The notes under the pieces were generated by a model that did no database searches, was not told the origin of the DNA, and saw nothing but the letters and a program-made list of their open reading frames with translations. From the IMG/VR virus record IMGVR_UViG_3300027973_000051: a stretch of 20,000 nucleotides of DNA; one strand, 5' to 3'. Position numbers and translations under genes: made by a program. Shown here in pieces: positions 233-15,240 of the stretch; within the stretch, counting starts at the first letter, position 1; each line of letters begins with the position of its first letter. Source of the stretch: an uncultured virus (IMG/VR IMGVR_UViG_3300027973_000051) (taxonomy: Duplodnaviria > Heunggongvirae > Uroviricota > Caudoviricetes).

Positions 233-250
233 GATTAGATTATACCATCA

Positions 251-802: not shown

Positions 803-875
803 TTGATTTTATGGACAAAATTATGCTATACTTGTCAGTAGACACCTACCAGGGTGTTATTGTTTTCTAAGGAGG
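803..875 (+). promoter_or_regulatory. Sigma70-type promoter and RBS for the lysozyme-like gene
   Basis: TTGATT (803-808), 18 nt, TATACT (827-832) with TGn extension. AAGGAGG at 869-875 before ATG 881. Confidence 0.6.
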
Positions 876-880
876 AAACT

Positions 881-1429
881 ATGATTAAATTTATCGAAAG
901 AAACAAAGAGATCATCAGCATACTCAGTATTTCTGCTTTAGTTAGTGTTATGTCAAATTCTGCTAATGCTACTATTAATGATTTAAAGCCCGAACAGGCT
1001 CAGAACGTGACAACAACCTCGCAAGAGGTTTTTTTGGTTTCTAAGCAAAAAAGGTTGGAGAGTTTTGCAAATAAGGCATCTCTAACTGATTTAGAACTAA
1101 AACAAATGCTACACCTTGTAGGGTTCAAAGGAAAGGATCTTATTGAGGCTTGGGCAGTGGCAAAAAAGGAATCTGGAGGAAGACCCCTAGCATTTAATGG
1201 CAACCAGAAGACTGGAGACAGTTCTTATGGAATTTTTCAAATAAATATGCTTGGTATTCTTGGTCCAGATCGTAGAAACAAGTTTGATTTATCGTCAAAT
1301 GCTGAACTTCTCAATCCCGTGCTTAATGCACAGATTGCATTTTATATGACCGATGGTGGAAAAGATTGGTCCTCTTGGCATGGGTTAACTGCTAAGACCA
1401 AAGAATTAATGAAACAATTTCCAAACTAA
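881..1429 (+). CDS. Lysozyme-like/lytic transglycosylase protein with N-terminal signal or anchor
   Basis: WAVAKKESGG (catalytic ES), GDSSYGIFQIN, NP..NA.IA and DWSSW motifs. Hydrophobic N-terminus IISILSISALVSVM. Start at 881 supported by the RBS. Confidence 0.85.
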   Translation: MIKFIERNKEIISILSISALVSVMSNSANATINDLKPEQAQNVTTTSQEVFLVSKQKRLESFANKASLTDLELKQMLHLVGFKGKDLIEAWAVAKKESGGRPLAFNGNQKTGDSSYGIFQINMLGILGPDRRNKFDLSSNAELLNPVLNAQIAFYMTDGGKDWSSWHGLTAKTKELMKQFPN

Positions 1430-1435
1430 AAACAT

Positions 1436-2314
1436 TTAGTCTAAATTAATCCCCACTATTTTTTGATATTGCTCAAAGAGTAGTGGGGATTTTATTCCAT
1501 ATTCACCTATATTTTTGTCTCCCGTTAATATTGCTTCAACCCTTTGATTTGATTTTGCTCTCAACTCTCCCCAATTAGGATTATCTTCCCAATGCAACCT
1601 TCTTTTTGAGTTTACTAAATTATAGTTTGTAAACATAAACTTAGTTACTGGAGAAACGATTCTAATACCTCGTGTGTACGCTCTTATGGCAAGTGAAAAC
1701 TCTTCGCCCTCAAAATATAACTCTTTATCATATGGTAACTCCTTCATAATCTCAGATGTTGTAAAAATGCAGCCAGCACAAATATACAAAACCTCATCAC
1801 CAAACTCTTTATCTTGCACTTCGGACCATGGCATTTTTGATCCGACTATCCTTAAATTTTTATCCCAATTAGGCTCAATTTTTTTTAATGTCTCATACGG
1901 TAGTGTTATGTATGAGTCTTCTGTTAACTCAAAAGGGTCGGGGTAATTTGTTAATATTAATCTATCACCCCAAAAAGATTTAGATTTGTTATAATTATTT
2001 ATAATAGTTGTATCCCAGTTTAAAGCAAACCTAGAGTGTGAGTCTATTTGTAAAAAATATTTACCTATAGGTTTGGCTGTCGCAATTGATCTTGCCCAAC
2101 ATGCACCTTTGCTTTCTGACCAATGAGTTTTAATATATCTTATCTGTTTATTTGGTATAAATGATAGGTCTGCATGTTCAGCATCTTCTGCTTGAGAAAA
2201 TACTGAAAAAAACAATGAATCTTTATTGTCTGCATTTTCATAACAATTTTTTACGGTATTTACAAGATCTGGATCTCTATAACTTGCTATACTAATAAAG
2301 ATTAGTTTATCCAT
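1436..2314 (-). CDS. GT-A glycosyltransferase, Skp1-hydroxyproline/polypeptide GlcNAc-transferase-like (GT60)
   Basis: IFISIASYRDP, SKGACWAR, YFLQIDSHSRF (DxH), NWD and YFEGEE..LA.RA.T.G motifs. Confidence 0.8.
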   Translation of the reverse strand: MDKLIFISIASYRDPDLVNTVKNCYENADNKDSLFFSVFSQAEDAEHADLSFIPNKQIRYIKTHWSESKGACWARSIATAKPIGKYFLQIDSHSRFALNWDTTIINNYNKSKSFWGDRLILTNYPDPFELTEDSYITLPYETLKKIEPNWDKNLRIVGSKMPWSEVQDKEFGDEVLYICAGCIFTTSEIMKELPYDKELYFEGEEFSLAIRAYTRGIRIVSPVTKFMFTNYNLVNSKRRLHWEDNPNWGELRAKSNQRVEAILTGDKNIGEYGIKSPLLFEQYQKIVGINLD

Positions 2315-2886
2315 GATACAACTGCATACCTTGTACCACTTGTGACTTCTAGAACAGAATGATTATATACATATGTTGATGGAAACATGATTAGTTGATT
2401 TGCTTTTGGTTTAAACTTAATATCAAACCTTGGAAAAACTATTTCTCCGCCTTCGTAATCATCATTAAAATAATATACATTCGAAACAGTTCTTGGGTAT
2501 TCTGGATGGTGGTCAACATGATTTGTAAAAAACTGGCCTTTACCATATCTTAAAATATCATATGAGGAGTGATCTGAAAAACTAAGACCATAGGTTCCCT
2601 TATATTCTCTTTCAAACTTATCAAAGGAATTAAAGAATGTTTCTGAAAGTGTTTTTTCAAAAAAGTCTCTTGGTGTTGGGTATACGCCATCAAATTCTGA
2701 TAAATATGGAACATATATTGAATCTGTGTCTCTAATTTTTTTATTTTCTCCACTATCAATTGCTGCAGCATTCCAGGGGATAAGTCCACTTTGTACTACA
2801 TCCTCTATGTCTTTTGGAAATGATTCATAATCATCTAGTACATCTGAATATACTACAATTCCTGGTGCAATTTCTTCTTTTATCAT
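2302..2886 (-). CDS. Prolyl 4-hydroxylase-like 2OG-Fe(II) dioxygenase
   Basis: LRYGKGQFF..HVD (HxD), YFNDDYEGGE..F, FPS...Y.H.V..V.SGTRY. Probable start MIKEEIAPG at 2886, just after the upstream stop. Confidence 0.88.
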   Translation of the reverse strand: MIKEEIAPGIVVYSDVLDDYESFPKDIEDVVQSGLIPWNAAAIDSGENKKIRDTDSIYVPYLSEFDGVYPTPRDFFEKTLSETFFNSFDKFEREYKGTYGLSFSDHSSYDILRYGKGQFFTNHVDHHPEYPRTVSNVYYFNDDYEGGEIVFPRFDIKFKPKANQLIMFPSTYVYNHSVLEVTSGTRYAVVSWIN

Positions 2887-2887
2887 T

Positions 2888-3151
2888 TTACCATTTACCA
2901 ATTGGGCATGATGCTTTTGCAAGTGTTGTTTTTGCTTTCATAAAGCATCCACATTTTTTGCATTGAGTTGTTAATTTAATCATTTCTGGACAAGCCTTAC
3001 AAATTTGGTATCTTATATCAGACTCTTCTTTTGGCAAAAAGTCAGAATTTGGATTTAACATGTCCCAAGGCTTAACAGTATCTGGATCTTTCATGTACCC
3101 AGCCATTTCAGCAATTTTATGAAATGCAGATTTTGTATTATTTTCTTCCAT
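2888..3151 (-). CDS. Small Cys-rich putative metal-binding protein (DUF6171-like)
   Basis: R..ICxxC...CxxCGCFM..K..L..ASCPIGKW. Paralogue at 11783-11980. Confidence 0.75.
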   Translation of the reverse strand: MEENNTKSAFHKIAEMAGYMKDPDTVKPWDMLNPNSDFLPKEESDIRYQICKACPEMIKLTTQCKKCGCFMKAKTTLAKASCPIGKW

Positions 3152-3173
3152 TTAAAAATTATACCATAGAGAA

Positions 3174-5420
3174 CTATACTGTGTCTGGACGGTCAAATAC
3201 TAACATTTTTGTTGTAAAGAAGTTGTCATATGGTTCGCAGTTAATAGAAACCTTGTCTAGTGTCATATATACTGTTTCTATTAGTTCAATATTTTTAAAG
3301 TCTCCAAGTTCTGGTGAGAATATTTGATATGTAGCATCAATATCTACAGCCTTTATAAATCTTGTAACTCCATCTTTTTTAACTAAGACATAGTGAGACT
3401 TAGAGAACAAATCTCCTTCAATATAAATAAACTCATCTTCTTGTGCAATATTAATAGCAACAATTTCAGTCTCTACAATATTTTCCATATCTAAAGATAT
3501 ATCAGATGATTGCCATGTTGTCCAGTCTGTTACATTATCATCAATCTTAAGAGCAAGTAGTTTATCTCCCACCTTTAGTTCTCCTGCTGATTTTTTAGAT
3601 CCTGGGGCTCCTGCGGTAAGTATGTCAGTCAAAATACTTATTGAGTTGAAGAAACCAAATGCTCCAAACGTTTCTCCGCCAGAAGGTACAAACGAGAAGG
3701 CTCCAAATGCAGTAAATCCTGATGGAGTAAAGGAAAACGCCGAAGGCGTAAATGAGAATGCACCAAATGCACCGAAGGCGCTAAATGTTGCTGGTGCTGG
3801 ATTGCATACGCACCGTCCAGCGCAATTAATTGTTCCAGCACATCCATCTGCTCCAGTACAATCCATATCGGCATTAGCACTACATGGTGCTGCAGTTGGT
3901 GCTACAGTAGCCGTTGGTGCAGGAGTTGTTGTTACGGTTGGTGCGGGAGTCGTTGTTACAGTTGGTGCGGGAGTTGTTGTTGGTGCTGCTGGACAGTCCC
4001 AATAATAAGCCAATGTACAAGGATTCTGGTAAATTGCAACTGGTGTTGAAGAACCATTACACTGTCTATTTTCAATCCCTTGATAAACTAAATTACAATT
4101 TGTAGGTGCAGGTGTTGTGGTAACCGTTGGTGTTGGTGAAGGAGTTGGTGAAGGAGTTGGTGAAGGAGTTGGTGAAGGAGTTGGTGTTGGAGTTGGTGTA
4201 CATGTTGGAACTGTAGGATATCCAGGGTATCCAGATGTAGAACAAGATGTTGCATAGTCATTACATAAAGAACCACTTACATCATAACTTGCAGTACCTT
4301 GCTCAGTTGATCCATTTTGATACTTTGTTGAGCAATACCAAGTTGTCCCTGGTGTAGGTGTTGGTGTAACTGTAGGGGTTGGTGTTGCTGAAGGCGTTGG
4401 CGTTGGCGTTGTTGTTGGAGTTGGTGTACAATTTATGGTTGGATAACCACTTGTGCTTGTTGTTGCATCTGTTAAAATACCAGTCATACAAAAACTTTCA
4501 AGGCTATCTAATGCTTGAATTAAGCCAACATTACTAGAGCCATGCACTAATACACCATCACAACATCCCGATGCATACCAAGTTGATGGTGCAGGTGTTG
4601 GTGTTGGTGTTTGAGTTGGAGCAGGTGTACAACTTGGTGTTCCGCTAGTTGGTGTTGATCCACAAACCCATCCAATTGGTGGATAACCATTTGCATTTTC
4701 TTGTGCAGCATATGCATCAGCACATGATGAAGATGTCTGAAATGGTCCATATCCAGTATTTGTTAAATCACAATAACCAAAGTAATTTGTTCCAGCAGTT
4801 GTAGTTGGTGTTGGAGTTGTTGTAGGTGTTGGAGTACAATTAACAGAAGGATAAGAAGTTCCATAAACAACAGTTCTTTGTGTTGGTCCTACTAAACTTT
4901 GTGTACAGAAACTATCTAATGCATCAAGTGCATTTGCTTCTGATGAAAGACTGCTTCCATGAATTAGTACACCATCACAACATCCTGATGCATACCACCC
5001 AGTTATTCCAGTGCTTGTTGGTGTTGGTGTAACTGTTGGTGTTGGTGTTGGAGTTGGAGTTGGTGTAACTGTTGGTGTTGGTGTTGGTGTTGGTGTTGGT
5101 GTTGTAGTAGATGTAGGAGCAGGAGTAGTTGTTGGTCCTGGTGTAGAAGTTGGTGCTGGTGTAGAAGTTGGTGCTGGAACATAAGCATAATAAATAAAAC
5201 TTACATCTGACTCATACTGAACAAGATCTCCAGCATTAGGAAGTTGAGATGCAATTTTATCACTTAAAGATGCGTTAGATGTATTAGAAGATCCACCATT
5301 AATAGGATTTAGTCCTGAACTATAAATTGTAGCAATTGCTTGGGCTGTTGTTAGGTTAGAAAGATTTGGTACTGTTACCATTCCTTTTGATGATGACCAT
5401 AGACCAAATGAGTTTAACAT
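3174..5420 (-). CDS. PASTA + Pro/Thr-rich mucin-like repeats + Cys modules + Phe-rich tract + C-terminal Hint-like domain; probable virion surface/fibre protein
   Basis: N-terminal VTVPNL...A...I...GL...IASQLPNAG (PASTA). Several (TP)n tracts and a duplicated WYASGCCDGVLxHGSS module. C-terminal S-ISILTDILT..ELKVGD, SKSH and INCEPYDNFF..LVFD blocks. Confidence 0.8.
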   Translation of the reverse strand: MLNSFGLWSSSKGMVTVPNLSNLTTAQAIATIYSSGLNPINGGSSNTSNASLSDKIASQLPNAGDLVQYESDVSFIYYAYVPAPTSTPAPTSTPGPTTTPAPTSTTTPTPTPTPTPTVTPTPTPTPTPTVTPTPTSTGITGWYASGCCDGVLIHGSSLSSEANALDALDSFCTQSLVGPTQRTVVYGTSYPSVNCTPTPTTTPTPTTTAGTNYFGYCDLTNTGYGPFQTSSSCADAYAAQENANGYPPIGWVCGSTPTSGTPSCTPAPTQTPTPTPAPSTWYASGCCDGVLVHGSSNVGLIQALDSLESFCMTGILTDATTSTSGYPTINCTPTPTTTPTPTPSATPTPTVTPTPTPGTTWYCSTKYQNGSTEQGTASYDVSGSLCNDYATSCSTSGYPGYPTVPTCTPTPTPTPSPTPSPTPSPTPSPTPTVTTTPAPTNCNLVYQGIENRQCNGSSTPVAIYQNPCTLAYYWDCPAAPTTTPAPTVTTTPAPTVTTTPAPTATVAPTAAPCSANADMDCTGADGCAGTINCAGRCVCNPAPATFSAFGAFGAFSFTPSAFSFTPSGFTAFGAFSFVPSGGETFGAFGFFNSISILTDILTAGAPGSKKSAGELKVGDKLLALKIDDNVTDWTTWQSSDISLDMENIVETEIVAINIAQEDEFIYIEGDLFSKSHYVLVKKDGVTRFIKAVDIDATYQIFSPELGDFKNIELIETVYMTLDKVSINCEPYDNFFTTKMLVFDRPDTV
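3895..5180 (-). repeat. Coding tandem repeats for Thr-Pro tracts (6-, 12-, 18- and 24-nt units)
   Basis: (GGTGTT)n, GGAGTTGGTGAA repeats at about 4135-4180, and PAPTVTTT-type units at about 3915-3985 inside the 748-aa ORF. Confidence 0.9.
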
Positions 5421-5426
5421 TTTGAA

Positions 5427-6059
5427 CTACGCCTTCAAATCGCCAATAAGAATCCAAGTATTTGTATCGTCTTTAAGAAGTACCGCACCAGAATATTGAC
5501 TTGCTATTCTTTTGTTTCCATTCTTACTATTTATTGTTACGCCAACTGTTGCTCCAGCAATTGTAACTTCTCCAGAGCCGTTTCTAATAATTTCAATTTT
5601 TTGTCCAACTACAAAAGGAACAGAACTATTTAGTGGAACTGTAATTATCTTGTCTGTTGCTGCAGTTACTCTAATTGTTTTACCTGCATCTAAAAGTGCA
5701 ACTGTGTAGTTGTCTGTTTTAGAAAGAATGTGTGCGGAATCATTATATTCTCTCCATGCACCATTATAATAATATTGAATTTCATTTACAACATTTCCAG
5801 TTGAATCTTGTCTAACAAAAGCAACTACTCCATTTGCTGGAGATGTAATTGCAGCATCTCTTGCTGCTGGATTAAGAAAATTATTAATTCCTGCTTTTGC
5901 ATTTACAACACTATCAAAAGAAACAGTAGAGGCAAATGTGTGTGCCCCATTCCAATCAAAGTTAGCAGCAGTATTTGTTGAACCTGCTACTGGATACCAA
6001 GTATCGCTTCCTTGATCATATATATAAGCAATTTTTCCAATTGAACTAGTTGTTGTCAT
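5427..6059 (-). CDS. Tail fibre/virion structural protein
   Basis: RDAAITSP.NG..AF and YYYNG.W motifs. C-terminal Y T..L.DAG...ITVP...F..GQ.I.I...G.G.VTI...W.LIGDL domain is typical of phage fibres. Confidence 0.7.
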   Translation of the reverse strand: MTTTSSIGKIAYIYDQGSDTWYPVAGSTNTAANFDWNGAHTFASTVSFDSVVNAKAGINNFLNPAARDAAITSPANGVVAFVRQDSTGNVVNEIQYYYNGAWREYNDSAHILSKTDNYTVALLDAGKTIRVTAATDKIITVPLNSSVPFVVGQKIEIIRNGSGEVTIAGATVGVTINSKNGNKRIASQYSGAVLLKDDTNTWILIGDLKA

Positions 6060-6599: not shown

Positions 6600-6607
6600 A
6601 CATAAGA

Positions 6608-7186
6608 TTATACCACAGAAATAGACATATGAACGGTATAAGTATTATCTGGAAGTGGTGCCCAATTAGTACCGTCAAATTGTATTGCTGTTAAAGTAAT
6701 TGGCAATGTGTTTGACAGTGTTACTTCTCCCACCCCAATAGACACAGAAACAGGTCCAGTTGTATTAATTACACTTGCCTGAATATTAAAACTAGCAGCA
6801 GTTACTACGCCAATTCTATCTGATGGAACAATGTCAATAAGATTAATAGCAAATTCAGCAATACCGTCAGTAAATGACTTGCTTGCATAATTCTTATTAA
6901 AAAGGTTGGGGATTAATCTAAACAATCTCTTCCAAGTAAGGGTTCCGTCTTGTGATATATATTGGTACATATAAAGGTATTCATCACTTTGTGGTCCAAC
7001 ATTAATTACCATGTCATTTAACTGATACCCGCTTGGAAGCAGATTAGGAAAATCATTTGGACTATCAGAAAGATTATAGATATAACTTCCACGAGATCCT
7101 GCTGGACCAAAATCAACTTCAACATTTACTGTTGATGGTCCACCAAAAACTGTTAAATCTTCTGAGGAAACAACTATCTCTGCCAC
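6608..7186 (-). CDS. Putative virion structural protein
   Basis: 192-aa ORF with DFGP.G.RGS, co-oriented in the structural operon. Confidence 0.6.
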   Translation of the reverse strand: MAEIVVSSEDLTVFGGPSTVNVEVDFGPAGSRGSYIYNLSDSPNDFPNLLPSGYQLNDMVINVGPQSDEYLYMYQYISQDGTLTWKRLFRLIPNLFNKNYASKSFTDGIAEFAINLIDIVPSDRIGVVTAASFNIQASVINTTGPVSVSIGVGEVTLSNTLPITLTAIQFDGTNWAPLPDNTYTVHMSISVV

Positions 7187-7560: not shown

Positions 7561-7567
7561 AGAATTA

Positions 7568-8302
7568 TTATACCACGCTGACGTATACAGAATTAAGGAT
7601 TACTGATGCATCATAGTCTGTTCTGAGTTGAGGGACTGCTCCATTGCCCCACATTTTTTGGTTTTCAATAAAAATCTGCTGAGTAAAGGATATGTTATAA
7701 ACATGTTGATATTTGAAAGACCCAATTAATGATGCAACCTCTTGTTCATGGCTTGGGAAAAAAGTTCTTAGCCAAACCTCTGTATTTGTATTAAATGTTG
7801 TTAGTTCAAAGTTATAAGTTATAAAGACTTGCGCTCCCACATTTAATCCTTTAAAATTTAACATCTTTGAATGTGAATTCCAAAAACTTACACAGTCACT
7901 TGGTAAAAACTCTTCATTAGATTCACCAGAAACCATTTGTAAGTTTACCCAACCATCGATTCCTTTTGTGGCTCCAAGTCTTATATCTGATGGAGAACCA
8001 TTAAAATATGATGCCCAACCTGCTTGCTGTCCTGAAGAAGATAGAGAACTTTTACCATCTTTACCGTTTGGACCTTGAATTCCTTTTGGTCCTGTTTTTC
8101 CTTCTGGTCCTTGAGGTCCTTCTTTACCATCTTTTCCATCTTTACCATCTCTTCCTGCGGGACCTTGTGGACCTTGGGGCCCAGGGACTGGAAGGAAAGA
8201 AAGAGTATTTTCTTGATAAGGAGATGACTGACTCTGTTCTACTTGTGCAGCATAAGAAGATTTTTTTGCATTAGGAAAGTCCATAGATTTAGAAGCAGCC
8301 AT
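7568..8302 (-). CDS. Collagen-like repeat virion protein
   Basis: Continuous Gly-X-Y run GPQGPQGPAGRDGKDGKDGKEGPQGPEGKTGPKGIQGPNGKDGK, followed by a beta-rich domain. Confidence 0.8.
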   Translation of the reverse strand: MAASKSMDFPNAKKSSYAAQVEQSQSSPYQENTLSFLPVPGPQGPQGPAGRDGKDGKDGKEGPQGPEGKTGPKGIQGPNGKDGKSSLSSSGQQAGWASYFNGSPSDIRLGATKGIDGWVNLQMVSGESNEEFLPSDCVSFWNSHSKMLNFKGLNVGAQVFITYNFELTTFNTNTEVWLRTFFPSHEQEVASLIGSFKYQHVYNISFTQQIFIENQKMWGNGAVPQLRTDYDASVILNSVYVSVV

Positions 8303-8789: not shown

Positions 8790-8809
8790 AATACCTAGAT
8801 TATACCATG

Positions 8810-9074: not shown

Positions 9075-9974
9075 ATGAATCAATTTTACGACAAATACTT
9101 TTCTGGAAACTTAATAGGTGCAACTCGTGGTGGATTCAATAAACGTGGGGAAGCAATAGAAAGCAATACAACGTATGATGGTGTATGTCCAGATTGTGAT
9201 CATTATGGTGATTGTGCTATTGTAAGAAAAGGTAATATTTATCCAGATCCCTTAATAACTTACAAGATAAATAACTACGGATATAGGTCTGATGATATCA
9301 CAAAAGAAGATGCACTAAATAATTTTATATTTTCTGGATGCTCAAATACTTTTGGAATAGGCGTTCCAATTGAATCTATTTGGGCCCATCAAATTAATGA
9401 AGAACTTGGTGGAGAAAAATTTATAAATCTTGGAATGAATAGCGGGTCTCATAAAACAATAGTTTTTGATATATTTAGATACATTAAAAATTTTGGAAAA
9501 CCTAAAGGTGTCTTTGTTCTTTTTCCAAACATGGAGCGACATATAGGATTTAGCAAAGATAAAGATAAGAATATTTTTATACTAGTTTATAGAAATCCTA
9601 GAGGCAGAGAAGATATGCAAAAATGCCTAGATGCAATACCAGAAGATGTTGCATGGTTTGAGTTCTATCATACTGTTATGATGCTTGAAGATTATTTGGA
9701 ACAACTTGATATTCCTTTGGTTTGGGCTACTTGGGATGAAAAACTTAATAAAAAAATACTAGGAACAAAAGGTTTTAGAAATTATGTAAATACTGAAAAC
9801 TTTGATATATTTGATAGAACAAAGGCTCTTGGAAAACCAGATAAATTTAAAAATAGGTATTGGGAAATAGCAAGAGACCTTTCTCATATGGGAACAAAAT
9901 CACATATGTTTTACTATCAATTATTAATTGATGAATGGAGGAATAAATATGAGAAGAATAATCAATCGAGTTAG
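9075..9974 (+). CDS. SGNH/GDSL hydrolase-like protein
   Basis: FSGCSNTFG (block I), INLGMNSGS (block II), RDLSHMG (DxxH). Confidence 0.7.
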   Translation: MNQFYDKYFSGNLIGATRGGFNKRGEAIESNTTYDGVCPDCDHYGDCAIVRKGNIYPDPLITYKINNYGYRSDDITKEDALNNFIFSGCSNTFGIGVPIESIWAHQINEELGGEKFINLGMNSGSHKTIVFDIFRYIKNFGKPKGVFVLFPNMERHIGFSKDKDKNIFILVYRNPRGREDMQKCLDAIPEDVAWFEFYHTVMMLEDYLEQLDIPLVWATWDEKLNKKILGTKGFRNYVNTENFDIFDRTKALGKPDKFKNRYWEIARDLSHMGTKSHMFYYQLLIDEWRNKYEKNNQSS

Positions 9975-11086: not shown

Positions 11087-11781
11087 AGTTTTATTGTAAG
11101 GATTCTAGAGAGGCTTTTCTGCAATCAGAGAGTGTGGATTTGTTTTTCACTCACCCGCCGTATTTTGTAACAAACAAATATCATTATGGTGGAGACCTAG
11201 CCTTGCAATTACAAAATAAAAAAGATTATTTTGCATATTTAGATGCCTATATCCAATGTATTAAAAATATGGAAACTGCTCTAAAGGACACTGGCTCAGC
11301 GATTATCATATTAAAAAATTATGAACACTCATTTGATATCATAGCCAAAATCAAAAGTGAAACAAATCTAATAATCACAAAAAGTCTTATTTGGGACTAT
11401 TCCGATAGTGTATTTTTACAGCATAACCAAGAAAGAACTGGAGATGAGTTTGCTATTATGCTTCTTCTTCATAAAAGACATAGTGTGCCTAGATATGAGC
11501 ATTTAGAGAACTTTGTTATTAGGACTCCTTGGGATACCGCCCTAGAATCAGTTAAAGAGTTTGATGAAATAGGCTTTGTTTATGATTGCTTCCCCGAAAA
11601 ATTAACAGAAATGATTCTAGATAACTATTCTGTACCTGGAGATACTGTTGCTGACATATTTGGAGGAACTGGCACTACTGCAGCAGTTTCACTGCGTATG
11701 GGCCGAAAGGCTATTTATAACGATGTCTCTATTGAACAGTTTAATATTGCCAAAAAGCGTCTTTCTGCTATAATTGACTAA
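11077..11781 (+). CDS. DNA N6-adenine/N4-cytosine methyltransferase (beta class)
   Basis: SVDLFFTHPPY (motif IV) precedes FP..L...I...S.PGD.V.DIFGGTGTT (motif I). Confidence 0.85.
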   Translation: MEVEFYCKDSREAFLQSESVDLFFTHPPYFVTNKYHYGGDLALQLQNKKDYFAYLDAYIQCIKNMETALKDTGSAIIILKNYEHSFDIIAKIKSETNLIITKSLIWDYSDSVFLQHNQERTGDEFAIMLLLHKRHSVPRYEHLENFVIRTPWDTALESVKEFDEIGFVYDCFPEKLTEMILDNYSVPGDTVADIFGGTGTTAAVSLRMGRKAIYNDVSIEQFNIAKKRLSAIID

Positions 11782-11782
11782 T

Positions 11783-11980
11783 ATGGACGACGTAAAGTTT
11801 ACAGATTTGTTTGACCCTAGTCAGCCTAGATCAGACAGAGGTTTAATTGAGCATCGTCTTAGTATTTGTAATGAATGCCCTGCATTTAGAAAAAATACAA
11901 AGAAGTGTACTAAGTGTGGATGTTTCATGAATTTGAAATCTACATTAAAGCAGGCAAAGTGCCCTATAGGAAAGTGGTGA
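11783..11980 (+). CDS. Small Cys-rich protein (DUF6171-like), paralogue of 2888-3151
   Basis: RLSICNECP...CTKCGCFMNLKSTLKQAKCPIGKW. TGCTATAAT at 11766-11774 precedes ATG 11783. Confidence 0.75.
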   Translation: MDDVKFTDLFDPSQPRSDRGLIEHRLSICNECPAFRKNTKKCTKCGCFMNLKSTLKQAKCPIGKW

Positions 11981-11983
11981 GAG

Positions 11984-12631
11984 ATGGAAAAAGAACATAA
12001 GTTTTTTGAAAGAGTTGTTAGGTCTGATATACCTTCACTTGAAAAATTTGTTTTAGAATTAAACGATGACCTACATGATGGACTATTTCCAGACATCACA
12101 AAAGAAGAAGTTATTGCAAAGAAAGAAATCGTTGGCGATGCTATTGGAACATCTTTTGCTCACAAGTATAATATTTTTCAATTTTTAAATTCAGATATCA
12201 GAAAGTTACACCAAGCGATTAGAGACATGACCATTGAGGCATGTGATTACTATGGTGTGGACTTTAATAAGCAAGAATATATGCTTCAAGGTTGGTTTAA
12301 TTGCGATAATAAGTCATCAGATAATTTAAATGATTTACATGATCACTGTGGTGGAGTTGGATTACCATTTTTCCATGGTTACTATTGTGTAAATGCAGAA
12401 CCATCAGTGACTCATTACCAGTTAGATCCAAAAAACAATCCAGAGGAAATTTTTGAGAATGTCAATGTTAATGACAGAGCAATCCTTTCTGTTGTTGGGA
12501 AACCACATAGAAAAGGCAAGTGGGAACAAGATAGCAAGCGAATTACTATTGCTTATGATATGATCCCACTATCTGCTCTTGGCGATAATAATGACAAAAA
12601 CTATTTGCAACACTGGGTACCACTAATCTAA
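11984..12631 (+). CDS. Putative 2OG-Fe(II) oxygenase
   Basis: WFN, LHDH, FHGYYCVN, distal H and RITIAYD fit a double-stranded beta-helix oxygenase. Confidence 0.65.
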   Translation: MEKEHKFFERVVRSDIPSLEKFVLELNDDLHDGLFPDITKEEVIAKKEIVGDAIGTSFAHKYNIFQFLNSDIRKLHQAIRDMTIEACDYYGVDFNKQEYMLQGWFNCDNKSSDNLNDLHDHCGGVGLPFFHGYYCVNAEPSVTHYQLDPKNNPEEIFENVNVNDRAILSVVGKPHRKGKWEQDSKRITIAYDMIPLSALGDNNDKNYLQHWVPLI

Positions 12632-12826: not shown

Positions 12827-12839
12827 AATCTGAAAAATT

Positions 12840-13013
12840 TTATTTACCGCAAGTGCAGTCAGAGCAACAAGTTTCTGAAAATAACTTTACGGACAAATTA
12901 GGATATCCCTGATCAAGGATTGGTCTTCCCATTGCATCGTTTTCTAATAGTGGTTTTGACTCAAACTGGAAATCTTCATCCCAGGCATTTTCTAAATTAT
13001 CTAATATTCCCAT
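12840..13013 (-). CDS. Hypothetical protein with C-terminal CCxxCxC (57 aa)
   Basis: MGILDNLENAWDEDFQFESK...ETCCSDCTCGK. TGGTAGAAT lies 6 nt before the ATG. Confidence 0.6.
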   Translation of the reverse strand: MGILDNLENAWDEDFQFESKPLLENDAMGRPILDQGYPNLSVKLFSETCCSDCTCGK

Positions 13014-13082
13014 GAATTTATTCTACCACAAATCTGAATATTTTTACTAGATGTATGATACATGATTTAGAAATAAATAAAC

Positions 13083-13116
13083 AAAAAAAATAGTGAGCAC
13101 ATACTGGTGCCCACTA
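13083..13116 (-). terminator. Intrinsic terminator
   Basis: Minus strand TAGTGGGCAC-cagtat-GTGCTCACTA followed by T8. Confidence 0.75.
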
Positions 13117-13135
13117 GATCTTTTAGAGTACTATT

Positions 13136-13240
13136 CTATACACACTTGCAAGGGTCTATGTGTGTCATTTCAGCATCAAAAATAATGATACCTGTGTCTC
13201 CACATGACTCGCATGTGTGTGCATACATTGCTGATGTCAT
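13136..13240 (-). CDS. Small Cys-rich peptide (34 aa)
   Basis: MTSAMYAHTCESCGDTGIIIFDAEMTHIDPCKCV. Abuts the upstream stop, with GAGG RBS. Confidence 0.55.
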   Translation of the reverse strand: MTSAMYAHTCESCGDTGIIIFDAEMTHIDPCKCV

Positions 13241-13405
13241 CTACTTAACCTCAATCTTTCTAACACATGCTGAGAACTTAACCTTCTTGCCTAAGTCACT
13301 ATCATTGAGTGAGTCAATGAGATGGTCAATCTCTTTTGCATCTGTTGCGATGTTGTCAACAGATAGTAGATTGCTACCCTGCCAAATTGAGTATGTGATT
13401 GTCAT
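13241..13405 (-). CDS. Hypothetical early protein (54 aa)
   Basis: MTITYSIWQG..., downstream of the promoter at 13443-13471. Confidence 0.65.
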   Translation of the reverse strand: MTITYSIWQGSNLLSVDNIATDAKEIDHLIDSLNDSDLGKKVKFSACVRKIEVK

Positions 13406-13442
13406 TGTCTGTTCTTCTTTCGTTAGTTTGTTTATAAGGATA

Positions 13443-13497
13443 ATAATAGTAGGGATAAGGGAAAAAGTCAAGCATTTAGCGTGTGGTGTTGGTCACA
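13443..13497 (-). promoter_or_regulatory. Promoter with upstream CRP-like box
   Basis: TTGACT-17-TATTAT on the minus strand. TGTGG-N6-TCACA at 13482-13497. Confidence 0.75.
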
Positions 13498-13499
13498 CC

Positions 13500-13673
13500 T
13501 TAGAAGCCATACCATTTCTTGCGTATAGCCTCTATTGTGGCTATCTGTGCCTCATCTGCTGAGCGATAGGCTTCTACGCTTTCACGTATCCATGGAGACT
13601 TTAGCATAGCCTTCTCATGTGCTTCATGGCGAGCAAGGTCTTGCTCTGCCTTTATTCTGTTTAGTGTATCCAT
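13500..13673 (-). CDS. Hypothetical early protein (57 aa)
   Basis: MDTLNRIKAEQDLARHEAHEKAMLKSPWIRES...KKWYGF, with AGAAAGGTG RBS. Confidence 0.7.
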   Translation of the reverse strand: MDTLNRIKAEQDLARHEAHEKAMLKSPWIRESVEAYRSADEAQIATIEAIRKKWYGF

Positions 13674-13728
13674 TTAATGAACACCTTTCTTTAGTAGTTT
13701 TATTTAGTATTTAATTGTTATACCTGTA

Positions 13729-13794
13729 AGGGTATCATACATACCCTGAAAAGTCAAGGCGACACGCCGTTGGCGTGATGTGATGTGTGTCACT
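13729..13794 (-). promoter_or_regulatory. Promoter with ACGGCGTGTC element and CRP-like box
   Basis: TTGACT-17-TACCCT (TGn extended), GTGTC 3 nt upstream of -35, TGTGA-N6-TCACT at 13779-13794. Confidence 0.7.
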
Positions 13795-13810
13795 TATTCG
13801 CTACGCTCAT

Positions 13811-13826
13811 GCGAACATTTGTTCGC
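13811..13826. promoter_or_regulatory. LexA/SOS box (Gram-positive/actinobacterial type)
   Basis: GCGAAC-ATTT-GTTCGC is a perfect match to CGAAC-N4-GTTCG. Confidence 0.7.
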
Positions 13827-13879
13827 CTTATTTGGTAGGCTCATTGACCTTTTCTTTATTTAATTTTTTGTATACGGCA

Positions 13880-14048
13880 AGTATAACAGACATACCCCAC
13901 AAAGTCAAGTCCTGACACGGCGTGTCGCATGTGATGTCCCTCACATTTTACTCGGGTGAAATGTGGTGTAGGTCACATGTGTTCTACCTCACAATGTCCC
14001 TAATGTCCGTATTGCACCCTACCATTTGTCAGTGGTAGGTGTTACACT
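13880..14048. promoter_or_regulatory. Divergent promoter hub
   Basis: Minus: TTGACT-17-TATACT (13880-13908). Palindrome GACACG-G-CGTGTC (13914-13926). Three CRP-like boxes (13930, 13962, 13978). Plus: TGTCAG-N10-TACACT (14027-14048). Confidence 0.75.
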
Positions 14049-14104
14049 TACAGTATAAAGAAAAACAAGAGGTAAAGAAATCCTCTAAAGAAAGGTGGTC
14101 TAAA

Positions 14105-14278
14105 ATGACTACACTTACAGTATGTAAAGAGCATAACCCTATGCTATCCGCTATCTCCTCAGTAGGAGATGACCAATTCACTTTTTGTCAAGATTGTGAA
14201 AATAACATTGAGCGTTGGTATGACGATACTGACCCAGAAAGACTACCTATGTGGTCAGATTGGAAGGTTTCTAAATGA
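14105..14278 (+). CDS. Small Cys/His-containing early protein
   Basis: MTTLTVCKEH...FCQDCENNI...WSDW, with AAAGGTGG RBS. Confidence 0.7.
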   Translation: MTTLTVCKEHNPMLSAISSVGDDQFTFCQDCENNIERWYDDTDPERLPMWSDWKVSK

Positions 14279-14388
14279 GAGACTTTGTAGAAAAACTAGA
14301 AATAGAAAACTTTTGGGAAGATGAATACATTGACCCACTAGCAAAACGATTAGATGAACTAATCAAGAAAGGTAGTTACTCAAAATGA
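14275..14388 (+). CDS. Hypothetical peptide (37 aa)
   Basis: MRDFVEKLEIENFWEDEYIDPLAKRLDELIKKGSYSK, with ATGA overlaps at both ends. Confidence 0.6.
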   Translation: MRDFVEKLEIENFWEDEYIDPLAKRLDELIKKGSYSK

Positions 14389-14549
14389 GCACTTTCATAA
14401 ACCTTGCCTCTGTGTGTGGTAAATCTTCTGCTTCTGTTGATGTCTATGACCTAGACCTCAACCCTAATGGAGTTATCTGTTGCGATAACTGTAAGTCAAT
14501 TCTTATGTGCCGCAAGGCTTGGGATTTTCTATACAAGGAGAATAAATGA
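14385..14549 (+). CDS. Small Cys-rich protein (54 aa)
   Basis: MSTFINLASVCG...ICCDNCKSILMCR..., ATGA-coupled. Confidence 0.6.
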   Translation: MSTFINLASVCGKSSASVDVYDLDLNPNGVICCDNCKSILMCRKAWDFLYKENK

Positions 14550-14635
14550 AAACACTTCAAGAGAAATTAGATGAAGCAGCCATTGCACTAGAACCAGTGC
14601 TTTGGGAACTACTAGATGAAATTGATGGTAACTAA
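14546..14635 (+). CDS. Acidic peptide (29 aa)
   Basis: MKTLQEKLDEAAIALEPVLWELLDEIDGN, with AAGGAG RBS and ATGA coupling. Confidence 0.6.
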   Translation: MKTLQEKLDEAAIALEPVLWELLDEIDGN

Positions 14636-14688
14636 TGTTAGTTGTATGTATTGCAATGATGGTTTTTGGTTTTCTTTATTCCTTGTAA
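14635..14688 (+). CDS. Possible hydrophobic micropeptide (17 aa)
   Basis: MLVVCIAMMVFGFLYSL, TAATG-coupled and ending before a terminator. Confidence 0.35.
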   Translation: MLVVCIAMMVFGFLYSL

Positions 14689-14697
14689 ATAAAAAGC

Positions 14698-14727
14698 AAA
14701 GATCGCAGAATAAAAACTGCGATTTTT
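14698..14727 (+). terminator. Intrinsic terminator
   Basis: ATCGCAG-aataaaaa-CTGCGAT followed by a T run, with an A run upstream. Confidence 0.6.
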
Positions 14728-14740
14728 GACTCGGGCGGTT

Positions 14741-14806
14741 TGTGATGTAAAACACATCTAAGATACGGCGTGTCGTCTTGACTTTTTGACATTTCTCTGC
14801 TATACT
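14741..14806 (+). promoter_or_regulatory. Promoter with CRP-like box and ACGGCGTGTC element
   Basis: TGTGA-N6-ACACA, then ACGGCGTGTC-gtc-TTGACT-17-TATACT (TGn). Confidence 0.8.
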
Positions 14807-14856
14807 TCTAGTATAAAGAAAGTTGAGAAAGGTTCTCAAACTAGAAAGGTCAGAAA

Positions 14857-15021
14857 ATGACAAATAGAATGTGGGAAAGTCGAAATGACTTTCAGAATGA
14901 AAGTGACGCTAAGCGTCTTGGTTATGTAGCCTGTTCAGCAGGTTGCGGTAGAGTGACAGCATGGTCACTATGCGTAATGTGTGGAGGCAACTACGCCACA
15001 CACAACCTAGTAGGAAAGTGA
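14857..15021 (+). CDS. Small Zn-finger-like protein (54 aa)
   Basis: MTNRMWESRN...CSAGC...CVMC..., with AGAAAGG RBS. Confidence 0.65.
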   Translation: MTNRMWESRNDFQNESDAKRLGYVACSAGCGRVTAWSLCVMCGGNYATHNLVGK

Positions 15022-15082
15022 TCTAAATCACACAAACTGAACGGCGTGTCGTCTTGACTTTTTAGGTCTTATCTGATAGTCT
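15017..15082 (+). promoter_or_regulatory. Promoter with CRP-like box and ACGGCGTGTC element
   Basis: AGTGA-N6-TCACA, then ACGGCGTGTCGTCTTGACTTTTT (identical to the copy at 14765), 17 nt, TAGTCT (TGn). Confidence 0.75.
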
Positions 15083-15122
15083 TACTACATAAGAAAAACT
15101 AAATAAAGGACAAATTGGCTAA

Positions 15123-15174
15123 TGAGCCTAAGCAAATAAATGTGATGTAAATCACAGTGAGCCTTAGCAAATAA
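15123..15174 (+). repeat. 17-bp direct repeats flanking a CRP-like box
   Basis: TGAGCCTAAGCAAATAA and TGAGCCTTAGCAAATAA surround TGTGATGTAAATCACA. Confidence 0.85.
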
Positions 15175-15240
15175 GTAGTCAAAATGTCAGCCCCCAATGA
15201 TAGGATAGTCTTATCAACTTAAACGAAAGGTATAACACTT

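What the first reader, a model, noticed from the sequence alone, without database searches (positions are those of the whole stretch)
1436..5420. Candidate phage-encoded proline-hydroxylation/O-GlcNAc glycosylation system with its own mucin-like substrate
Seen: four consecutive minus-strand genes encode a Pro/Thr-repeat PASTA protein, a small Cys protein, a P4H-like 2OG-Fe(II) dioxygenase and an overlapping GT60-type GlcNAc transferase. Established: in Dictyostelium and Toxoplasma, the prolyl hydroxylase PhyA and the GT60 enzyme Gnt1 act in sequence on Skp1, and other GT60 enzymes start mucin-type glycosylation on Thr. Inference: the phage hydroxylates and glycosylates its own (TP)n stalk, and perhaps the collagen-like protein at 7568-8302, giving a stiff glycan-coated fibre. 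The SGNH-like enzyme and second oxygenase could be further tailoring steps.
Basis: partly seen in the sequence, partly recalled or inferred. Interest (0 to 1): 0.85.

Follow-up and report, generated by a model that had tools for sequence, protein, structure and literature searches.

The report
Phage mucin-type tail-fibre glycosylation cassette
An uncultured lake phage encodes a protist-type protein sugar transferase and a proline-hydroxylase-like enzyme directly behind a gene for a predicted tail fibre with threonine/proline linkers, so it likely sugar-coats its own fibre much as eukaryotes coat mucins, probably on threonine rather than by the hydroxyproline relay first proposed.

Summary
Observation confirmed: four minus-strand genes encode a PASTA/Thr-Pro/Cys/Hint-like protein, DUF6171, a P4H-fold 2OG dioxygenase and a GT60 enzyme. 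They fill a hypervariable slot in ~115-kb WhiB-bearing freshwater phages. Across 58 non-redundant slots, GT60 goes with Pro/Thr-repeat fibres (20 of 42 vs 1 of 16) and higher Thr content, but not with the P4H (15 of 21 vs 20 of 37, p 0.27); tree-corrected tests point the same way without significance. In mostly unrelated phages GT60 often lies near Thr-Pro proteins (29 of 58 loci), rarely near a P4H (4 of 58). Best reading: mucin-type O-HexNAc on the fibre's Thr, with Pro hydroxylation in parallel (0.5). The strict PhyA-then-Gnt1 relay is a rival (0.22), supported by P4H-GT60 fusions (21 of 120 long homologues). The collagen-like protein is a poor substrate (0 Y-position Pro). No biochemistry exists. 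My ten literature searches found no report in phages; this scan found the cassette before on other genomes.

The parts
3174..5420 (-). 748-aa predicted fibre/appendage protein, the proposed substrate: PASTA, five Thr/Pro tracts alternating with small Cys modules, Phe-rich repeats, Hint-like cap
   Evidence: no signal or TM stretch (max KD19 1.32); fused to the upstream adaptor gene in 25 of 58 relatives
5196..5378 (-). PASTA domain (aa 15-75)
   Evidence: PF03793, E 8.7e-6; present in 16 of 58 slot fibres
5007..5180 (-). first and longest Thr/Pro tract (aa 81-138)
3885..4835 (-). four further Thr/Pro tracts (4788-4835, 4341-4427, 4101-4199, 3885-3992) between Cys modules
   Evidence: repeat-length indels in other runs
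3645..3790 (-). Phe-rich short repeats (FGAF/FSFTP type) just before the Hint-like domain; boundaries approximate
   Evidence: read from the translation; same type in relatives
3177..3644 (-). divergent Hint-like C-terminal domain: Ser1, block-B His, Phe-Asp in place of His-Asn
   Evidence: Ser 42 of 42, His 42 of 42, Asp 41 of 42; Atlas Hint clusters; PF14890 in 16 of 42 members, not in the window's own
3158..3166 (-). extended -10 promoter-like element TGGTATAAT before the three-gene cassette
   Evidence: 8 matches in the window vs 1.7 expected; looser form in 31 of 54 relatives vs 6% in shuffles
2888..3151 (-). DUF6171 small Cys protein; tracks Cys-rich fibres, fused to GT60 in some relatives
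   Evidence: 47 of 48 fibres with 6 or more Cys vs 3 of 10; fusions in L093/L103/L104
2302..2886 (-). P4H-fold 2OG-Fe(II) dioxygenase (open frame reaches 2922; residue numbers in this report count from 2922)
   Evidence: PF13640; H135-x-D137, H188 in 59 of 59; model pLDDT 95, top Foldseek hits all prolyl 4-hydroxylases
1436..2314 (-). GT60 (PF11397) glycosyltransferase
   Evidence: D91-x-H93 and H241 in 55 of 55; model pLDDT 95, all listed Foldseek hits are polypeptide GalNAc-transferases
5427..6059 (-). conserved upstream gene, minor-tail/virion-structural-like; left border of the variable slot, probable fibre adaptor
   Evidence: phrog_8780 minor tail E 7e-17, phrog_18179 virion structural E 3.3e-16
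854..1429 (+). conserved lysozyme-like (SLT_3) gene; right border of the slot, not part of the cassette
   Evidence: PF18896, E 8.2e-14; used as anchor

Best explanation
The GT60 enzyme likely transfers a HexNAc (probably alpha-GlcNAc from host UDP-GlcNAc) onto threonines in the Thr/Pro linkers of the adjacent predicted fibre, mucin-style, while the dioxygenase likely hydroxylates prolines of the same linkers in parallel rather than as a required first step. Shown: the gene identities, intact catalytic residues, folds and gene linkage. Inferred: the protein is a virion fibre; it is the substrate; the sugar and acceptor residue; DUF6171 as a helper for folding or metal/disulfide handling of the Cys modules; the purpose (stiff, protease-resistant, glycan-masked stalks that hold hypervariable Cys modules away from the particle). 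All enzymes and the fibre lack signal peptides, so modification would happen in the host cytoplasm before lysis.
For: GT60 fold nearest to peptide-acting GalNAc-Ts, P4H fold nearest to protein prolyl hydroxylases. In 58 non-redundant complete slots: GT60 with Pro/Thr fibres 20 of 42 vs 1 of 16 (p 0.005); P4H 30 of 42 vs 5 of 16 (p 0.0075); Thr share of repeats 0.44 with GT60 vs 0.26 without (p 0.006; p 0.04 in the 33 loci fetched by the lysozyme alone); GT60 and P4H not associated (15 of 21 vs 20 of 37, p 0.27). P4H-less GT60s sit at five places of the GT60 tree, up to 82% identical to P4H-linked ones. Thr-run fibre with GT60 and no PF13640 in a 92-kb record, 85% complete (G029). GT60 loci without the lysozyme anchor: Thr/Pro-repeat ORF in 29 of 58, P4H hit in 4 of 58; 0 of 99 neighbour proteins from 23 such loci match a 2OG family, many are glycosyltransferases. 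Reverse test: 10 of 80 loci fetched by a (TP)7 pattern hold GT60, 5 of 80 a P4H, against about 930 GT60-pattern stretches in 2.9 million contigs. Second slot: P4H arrays follow Pro-rich PPFF fibres in 4 of 4 and are absent in 30 of 30 others.
Against: No biochemistry. Tree-corrected tests have only 7 independent pairs and none is significant (median p 0.06-0.25); block inheritance can mimic substrate coupling. In the 33 unbiased loci GT60 vs Pro/Thr fibre is 11 of 29 vs 0 of 4 (p 0.28). 22 of 42 Pro/Thr fibres have no GT60; five FTP-type fibres with 20-30 repeat Thr have neither GT60 nor P4H; two repeat-free fibres have a P4H. Three of the six P4H-less GT60 slots hold another 2OG-like gene, and one more (L104) has six PF13640 matches elsewhere in its genome. 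70 of 80 (TP)7 loci have no GT60. L265 pairs P4H+GT60 with Thr-free PFFP repeats. 21 of 120 long GT60 homologues are fused to a P4H-like domain. The window's nearest GT60 relative in the tree (L164, 55%) has a P4H. The Tyr three residues before the first iron His, seen in the B. anthracis P4H alignment, is Phe in 52 of 59. The cassette has its own promoter-like element, so it need not be co-transcribed with the fibre.
Confidence: 0.5

Rival explanations
1. Skp1-type relay on the fibre: the dioxygenase makes 4-hydroxyproline in the (TP)n tracts and GT60 then adds GlcNAc to the hydroxyproline.
For: 13-nt overlap of the two genes; Dictyostelium PhyA (6t8m) is among the top three structural hits; 15 of 21 GT60 slots also hold the P4H and 5 of 58 slots hold only DUF6171+P4H+GT60; L265; P4H-GT60 fusions in 21 of 120 long homologues; Gnt1 needs PhyA in Toxoplasma (PMC6939170, passages).
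Against: No association of the two genes across slots (p 0.27), GT60 tracks Thr share, not Pro share; GT60 next to Thr-Pro proteins without any P4H in other phage groups: 0 of 66 lysozyme-less loci, 0 of 99 neighbours, 31 of 35 records without PF13640, most of them fragments.
Confidence: 0.22
2. The enzymes modify other targets: host surface proteins or glycans (receptor masking) or other virion proteins such as capsid or tail tube; the slot is simply a hypervariable island where morons collect.
For: Own promoter-like element; cassettes in relatives also hold epimerases, methyltransferases, radical SAM and HtrL genes typical of surface-glycan islands; mycobacteriophage glycans sit on capsid and tail tube (as cited in PMC12619734 and PMC11256854); cultured GT60 phages XacN1 and Xoo-sp13 show no annotated fibre next to the gene.
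Against: Cassette content follows the repeat type of the adjacent gene in two separate slots; GT60 lies beside Thr-Pro proteins in unrelated phage groups too; both folds are of protein-acting families and neither enzyme has a signal or membrane segment.
Confidence: 0.2
3. Linkage only: fibre and cassette travel as one recombination block and at least one enzyme (most likely the dioxygenase) has an unrelated role, as proposed for the many 2OG oxygenases of aquatic phages.
For: 219 cultured phage records, mostly cyanophages, carry relatives of the dioxygenase, only 4 carry GT60; tandem cyanophage dioxygenases were read as secondary-metabolite enzymes (PMC2938197, passages); PKHD/PiuC-type hydroxylases are also among the sequence hits.
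Against: PKHD scores are far below cut-off (42 vs 143 bits); structural hits are all prolyl hydroxylases; P4H arrays are confined to Pro-rich fibres in slot B (though those four may be kin).
Confidence: 0.08

Closest known systems
Protist GT60 polypeptide alpha-GlcNAc-transferases (Trypanosoma cruzi enzyme named in PMC6939170; Dictyostelium Gnt2, recalled)
   Same: PF11397, DxH motif and third His, GT-A fold closest to polypeptide GalNAc-Ts; candidate acceptor is a Thr/Pro-rich mucin-like tract.
   Different: 292-aa soluble enzyme without membrane anchor, phage-encoded, next to its proposed substrate; donor and acceptor untested.
Skp1 pathway of Dictyostelium and Toxoplasma (PhyA, then Gnt1, PgtA and others; PMC6939170 passages)
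   Same: A PHD/PhyA-fold dioxygenase and a GT60 enzyme together; cytoplasmic.
   Different: No Skp1; repetitive target rather than one Pro; the two genes are gained and lost independently; no elongating enzymes in this window's cassette.
PBCV-1 viral prolyl 4-hydroxylase (PDB 5c5t; PMC3634087 passage)
   Same: Viral monomeric P4H acting on Pro-rich repeats; fourth structural hit.
   Different: Algal virus; no GT60 partner described in the passage read; the phage enzyme has Arg in the 2OG-binding position where C-P4H types have Lys (recalled).
Virion glycosylation of mycobacteriophages (Che8; Freeman 2023, seen only as cited in PMC12619734 and PMC11256854)
   Same: Phage-encoded glycosyltransferases modifying the phage's own proteins in an actinobacterial host.
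   Different: Targets there are capsid and tail-tube C-termini; here a GT60, a hydroxylase and a mucin-like fibre.
Bacterial hydroxylase+sulfotransferase operons with collagen-like or tail-collar substrates (predicted in PMC2938197, passages)
   Same: Logic of a 2OG oxygenase cassette modifying a co-encoded low-complexity protein.
   Different: Other oxygenase families, sulfation not GT60 glycosylation; also only predicted.
Bacterial intein-like (BIL) / Hint domains
   Same: N-terminal nucleophile position, block-B His, weak hits to 2lwy and gp41-1 intein.
   Different: Ser1, Phe-Asp end, invariant NCEP motif; C-terminal cap of a fibre.

Membership tests
CAZy GT60 / PF11397 | profile match above cut-off | tested here: met
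   145.5 bits vs 21
CAZy GT60 / PF11397 | GT-A fold related to GT27, with DxH and a third metal His | tested here: met
   all listed Foldseek hits are ppGalNAc-Ts, TM(query) 0.58-0.68; D91, H93, H241 in 55 of 55
CAZy GT60 / PF11397 | UDP-GlcNAc donor, alpha linkage to Hyp or Thr | not testable with these tools
   needs an enzyme assay
Prolyl 4-hydroxylases (PHD/PhyA/C-P4H group) | HxD...H iron triad and basic 2OG ligand | tested here: met
   H135, D137, H188 in 59 of 59; position 198 Arg 45, Lys 14 of 59
Prolyl 4-hydroxylases (PHD/PhyA/C-P4H group) | P4H-type fold as nearest structure | tested here: met
   PPHD 4iw3, CrP4H 2jig, DdPhyA 6t8m, vCPH 5c5t, PHD2; TM(query) 0.60-0.71
Prolyl 4-hydroxylases (PHD/PhyA/C-P4H group) | substrate-binding Arg, Tyr, Arg, Trp (PHD2 R252, Y310, R322, W389; numbering and role recalled) | tested here: inconclusive
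   R64 56 of 59, R144 46 of 59, W204 43 of 59, but the Tyr position is Phe in 52 of 59
Prolyl 4-hydroxylases (PHD/PhyA/C-P4H group) | hydroxylates peptidyl proline | not testable with these tools
   needs an assay
PKHD-type hydroxylase (PiuC/YbiX) | NCBIfam cut-off | tested here: not met
   best 42 bits vs 143
Skp1 hydroxyproline glycosylation pathway | GT60 depends on a P4H partner | tested here: not met
   by co-occurrence only: 15 of 21 vs 20 of 37, p 0.27; 4 of 58 other loci
Skp1 hydroxyproline glycosylation pathway | Skp1 substrate and elongating transferases | tested here: not met
   no such Pfam match among the 23 window proteins scanned; only one GT60 in the 72-kb record; record 67% complete
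Collagen P4H substrate (7568-8302) | Pro in the Y position of Gly-X-Y (rule recalled) | tested here: not met
   0 Y-Pro, 7 X-Pro in 15 triplets; 38 Y vs 192 X in 34 relatives
Hint / BIL domain | Cys/Ser1 and block-B His | tested here: met
   Ser 42 of 42, His 42 of 42
Hint / BIL domain | C-terminal His-Asn | tested here: not met
   Phe 30, Tyr 6 of 42, then Asp 41 of 42
Hint / BIL domain | self-cleavage | not testable with these tools
Phage tail fibre / virion appendage | present in the particle | not testable with these tools
   indirect: structural gene block, adaptor fusion in 25 of 58, Hint relatives annotated as virion proteins in 3 of 5 records

The most novel reading that the evidence does not exclude
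Aquatic phages run a modular, eukaryote-like 'mucin/extensin' modification code: each fibre repeat type is shipped with its own tailoring kit (TP or Thr runs with GT60; PVAPTP with a second oxygenase, a fucosyltransferase-like enzyme and an epimerase; VTPA with P4H and a cupin; PPFF with arrays of up to eight P4H paralogues), and a Ser1/Asp Hint cap trims the finished fibre. This would make phages a large reservoir, and a possible source, of mucin-type and hydroxyproline protein glycosylation.
Probability: 0.3. Interest if true: 0.88.

Novelty: new variant of a known kind. Interest (0 to 1): 0.65.

Why it matters
Phage virion glycosylation is documented in few phages, and on capsid or tail tube. 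A soluble 292-aa GT60 and a 194-aa P4H with a co-encoded repeat substrate give a minimal system that can be rebuilt in a laboratory E. coli strain. It would test directly whether bacterial viruses make mucin-type or hydroxyproline glycans, which acceptor prokaryotic GT60s use, and whether fibre glycans affect host range, stability or grazing in lakes. It would also offer a function for part of the many unexplained 2OG oxygenases of aquatic phages, and small enzymes for glyco-engineering.

Tried and rejected
Pfam, PHROG and NCBIfam gave nothing for the SGNH-like gene or the second oxygenase. PDB sequence search with GT60 found 0 matches at E 1. First repeat measure missed five-letter FTP repeats and overstated the Thr link; redone with classes set after seeing the data. 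Tree-corrected pair tests were not significant; part's output was cut. Collagen as substrate rejected. WhiB not found in the window's own 67%-complete record, found in 5 of 5 complete relatives. General promoter/terminator scan at chance level. No RNA holder listed. One contig of run X6 joins 1383 to 2927, as if P4H and GT60 were absent, on 26 letters only: not relied on. 44 of the 124 (TP)7 loci came almost all with short flanks and were left out of the count (0 hits). No named eukaryotic Gnt1/Gnt2 came up among the 120 long homologues listed, so no tree against them was built. No complex prediction was run (enzyme-substrate pairs are poor cases). Freeman 2023 is not held; the paper was unrelated. 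Literature searches with zero papers; listings without a description of this system. Subscription journals and all supplements were not seen and may hold a prior mention.


Full report
Setting. The window is the end of a 72.5-kb virus record, 67% complete, with siphovirus-like structural genes (read from the ORF list). The five public runs that hold half or more of its words are labelled freshwater metagenome (four) or metagenome (one). Five of five complete relatives (112-119 kb) carry WhiB, so an actinobacterial host is inferred; the own record has no WhiB match.

Observation. The four genes are as described. GT60: PF11397 at 145.5 bits; D91-x-H93 and H241 invariant in 55 homologues; the model (pLDDT 95) matches only polypeptide GalNAc-transferases in the Foldseek list. 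No GT60 structure turned up, so this shows a peptide-acting fold, not the acceptor residue. Dioxygenase: PF13640; iron triad invariant in 59; profile hits led by B. anthracis P4H, a PKHD-type hydroxylase and PBCV-1 P4H; structural hits are P. putida PPHD, algal P4H, Dictyostelium PhyA, PBCV-1 P4H and PHD2. One substrate-site Tyr is Phe in 52 of 59. The large protein has PASTA, five Thr/Pro tracts between Cys modules, Phe-rich repeats and a Hint-like cap; none of the four has a hydrophobic signal or membrane stretch.

The slot. I fetched loci by GT60, Hint, lysozyme and adaptor queries and kept those that run from the adaptor gene (5427-6059) to the lysozyme (854-1429): 58 after removing fibres sharing over 60% of 5-mers; one is a 100% copy of the window. 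The first gene of the slot is always a variable fibre-like protein, fused to the adaptor in 25 of 58. By repeat content 42 are Pro/Thr type, 9 aromatic, 7 without repeats (classes set after a first pass missed FTP repeats). GT60: 20 of 42 vs 1 of 16 (p 0.005). P4H: 30 of 42 vs 5 of 16 (p 0.0075). Any glycosyltransferase-like gene: 35 of 42 vs 2 of 16 (p 1e-6), but most of those labels (O-FucT-, GT8-, GT11-, GT2-, GT15-, GT61-like) are my recalled motif readings; Pfam named only epimerase, HtrL, radical SAM, methyltransferases, NTP transferase, cupin, DUF6065, PASTA and one 2OG oxygenase. DUF6171: 47 of 48 fibres with six or more Cys vs 3 of 10. In the 33 loci fetched by the lysozyme alone the P4H link holds (22 of 29 vs 0 of 4, p 0.008), the GT60 link does not reach significance (11 of 29 vs 0 of 4, p 0.28). 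On a lysozyme-gene tree there are 7 independent pairs; trends agree (2.7-4.7 same way, 0.1-0.4 opposite) but median p is 0.06-0.25.

Thr or hydroxyproline. GT60 and P4H are not associated (15 of 21 vs 20 of 37, p 0.27). Within Pro/Thr fibres GT60 goes with a higher Thr share (0.44 vs 0.26, p 0.006), while P4H does not go with Pro share (p 0.98). Six slots have GT60 without this P4H; they lie at five places in the GT60 tree; three hold another 2OG-like gene, and L104's genome has six PF13640 matches elsewhere; the cleanest case is a Thr-run fibre in G029 (92 kb, 85% complete, no PF13640). Outside this phage group: of 58 non-redundant GT60 loci of 8 kb or more without the lysozyme (a few are the same group with a shifted order), 29 hold a Thr/Pro-repeat ORF and 4 a P4H hit; of 99 neighbours from 23 loci that I picked for having such repeats, none matches a 2OG family and many are GT34, HtrL, GT2, GT7, GT10, GT25 or methyltransferases; 4 of 35 records searched have PF13640, most being fragments. 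Those proteins show the same (TP)n-plus-Cys-module build. In the reverse test about 2,300 stretches of IMG/VR hold (TP)7; 10 of 80 fetched with flanks hold GT60 (two from one contig) and 5 a P4H, against about 930 stretches for the GT60 patterns; contig length and habitat inflate this enrichment, and 70 of 80 have no GT60. For the relay: the 13-nt gene overlap, L265 with Thr-free PFFP repeats plus P4H+GT60, and 21 of 120 long GT60 homologues fused to a P4H-like domain. Both routes may exist; for this window I put Thr-directed at 0.5 and the relay at 0.22, so self-modification of the fibre in either form at about 0.7.

Second slot. These genomes have a second Hint-capped fibre before the ribonucleotide reductase (G000 45423-47078). 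In 34 non-redundant loci, two to eight P4H paralogues follow the four PPFF-type fibres and none follows the other 30 (the four may be kin). This supports P4H acting on Pro-rich repeats of the neighbouring gene.

Collagen and other candidates. The collagen-like protein has no Y-position Pro and persists in 15 of 40 loci without a slot P4H. The SGNH-like and second oxygenase genes are unlinked here but have homologues inside cassettes of relatives. A TGGTATAAT element sits between fibre and cassette, as before several structural genes and the reductase, so the trio may be its own transcription unit.

Known systems. Skp1 pathway and GT60 scope: PMC6939170, passages. Viral P4H on Pro-rich repeats: PMC3634087, one passage. 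Co-encoded low-complexity substrates of bacterial oxygenases, predicted: PMC2938197, passages. Mycobacteriophage virion glycans: only as cited in PMC12619734 and PMC11256854, passages. Among 50,697 cultured phage records only 4 jumbo phages carry a GT60 relative, 23-24% identical, annotated merely as glycosyltransferase or hypothetical. Searches returned no paper; others listed none on this system. Earlier notes of this scan describe the same cassette on at least six other genomes; they are not independent evidence, and the seven GT60 notes were seen after my co-occurrence tests.

Verdict. Real, recurrent, chemically plausible and apparently not in print for phages; a new variant of virion self-modification using protist-type enzymes. 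Interest 0.65: high testability, but no direct evidence and weak phylogenetic independence.

Noticed in passing
window 3177-3644 (-); G000 45423-47078: Hint-like cap of a branch with invariant Ser1, block-B His, NCEP motif and terminal Asp instead of His-Asn (42 members); two near-identical copies cap two different fibres per genome. Other relatives use canonical Cys...His-Asn-Lys caps or none.
   Followed up: partly
window about 3645-3790 (-); L016, L069, L065, L261: Short perfect aromatic or amphipathic repeats directly before the Hint domain vary by phage: FGA, FTP, FSP, PPFF, FSHYAG, INT. Possibly a beta-solenoid or amyloid-like tip; unexplained.
   Followed up: partly
L056, L057, L062, L065, L067, L071, L072, L080 (second slot): Tandem arrays of up to eight P4H-like paralogues follow PPFF-repeat fibres only.
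   Followed up: partly
window 11766-12631 (+): A second DUF6171 copy with its own extended -10 element precedes the second oxygenase-like gene, after a DNA methylase; a possible third tailoring unit.
   Followed up: no
window 239-247, 785-793, 3158-3166, 6607-6615, 7567-7575, 8799-8807 (-): Identical TGGTATAAT elements 5-25 nt before start codons; 8 matches vs 1.7 expected; suggests many short or leaderless transcripts.
   Followed up: partly
P0121-P0197: Giant prokaryotic proteins (up to 2,000 aa, some labelled Alphaproteobacteria/Rickettsiales) fuse two to four GT60 domains with P4H-like, GT2 and redoxin domains; others fuse GT60 with O-FucT, HtrL or radical SAM.
   Followed up: no
L135, L106, L121, L143, L318, L138: VTPA/VTPV-repeat fibres come with a cupin, mostly with P4H, and in some a GT61-like gene (label recalled) instead of GT60.
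   Followed up: no
L033, L040, L049, L051, L321: Cys-rich slot proteins with no repeats keep DUF6171 but no glycosyltransferase, pointing to DUF6171 as a Cys-module helper.
   Followed up: partly
window 9075-9974 (+): Motifs read like an SGNH hydrolase but no library hit; homologues sit inside slot cassettes in L058 and L133.
   Followed up: partly
window 12830-15240: About 2.4 kb with few convincing ORFs between the tailoring genes and a run of small early-type genes; not examined.
   Followed up: no
L454 12001-18958; L455 9992-16932: In cultured jumbo phages XacN1 and Xoo-sp13 the GT60 relative is followed by a carbamoyltransferase gene.
   Followed up: no
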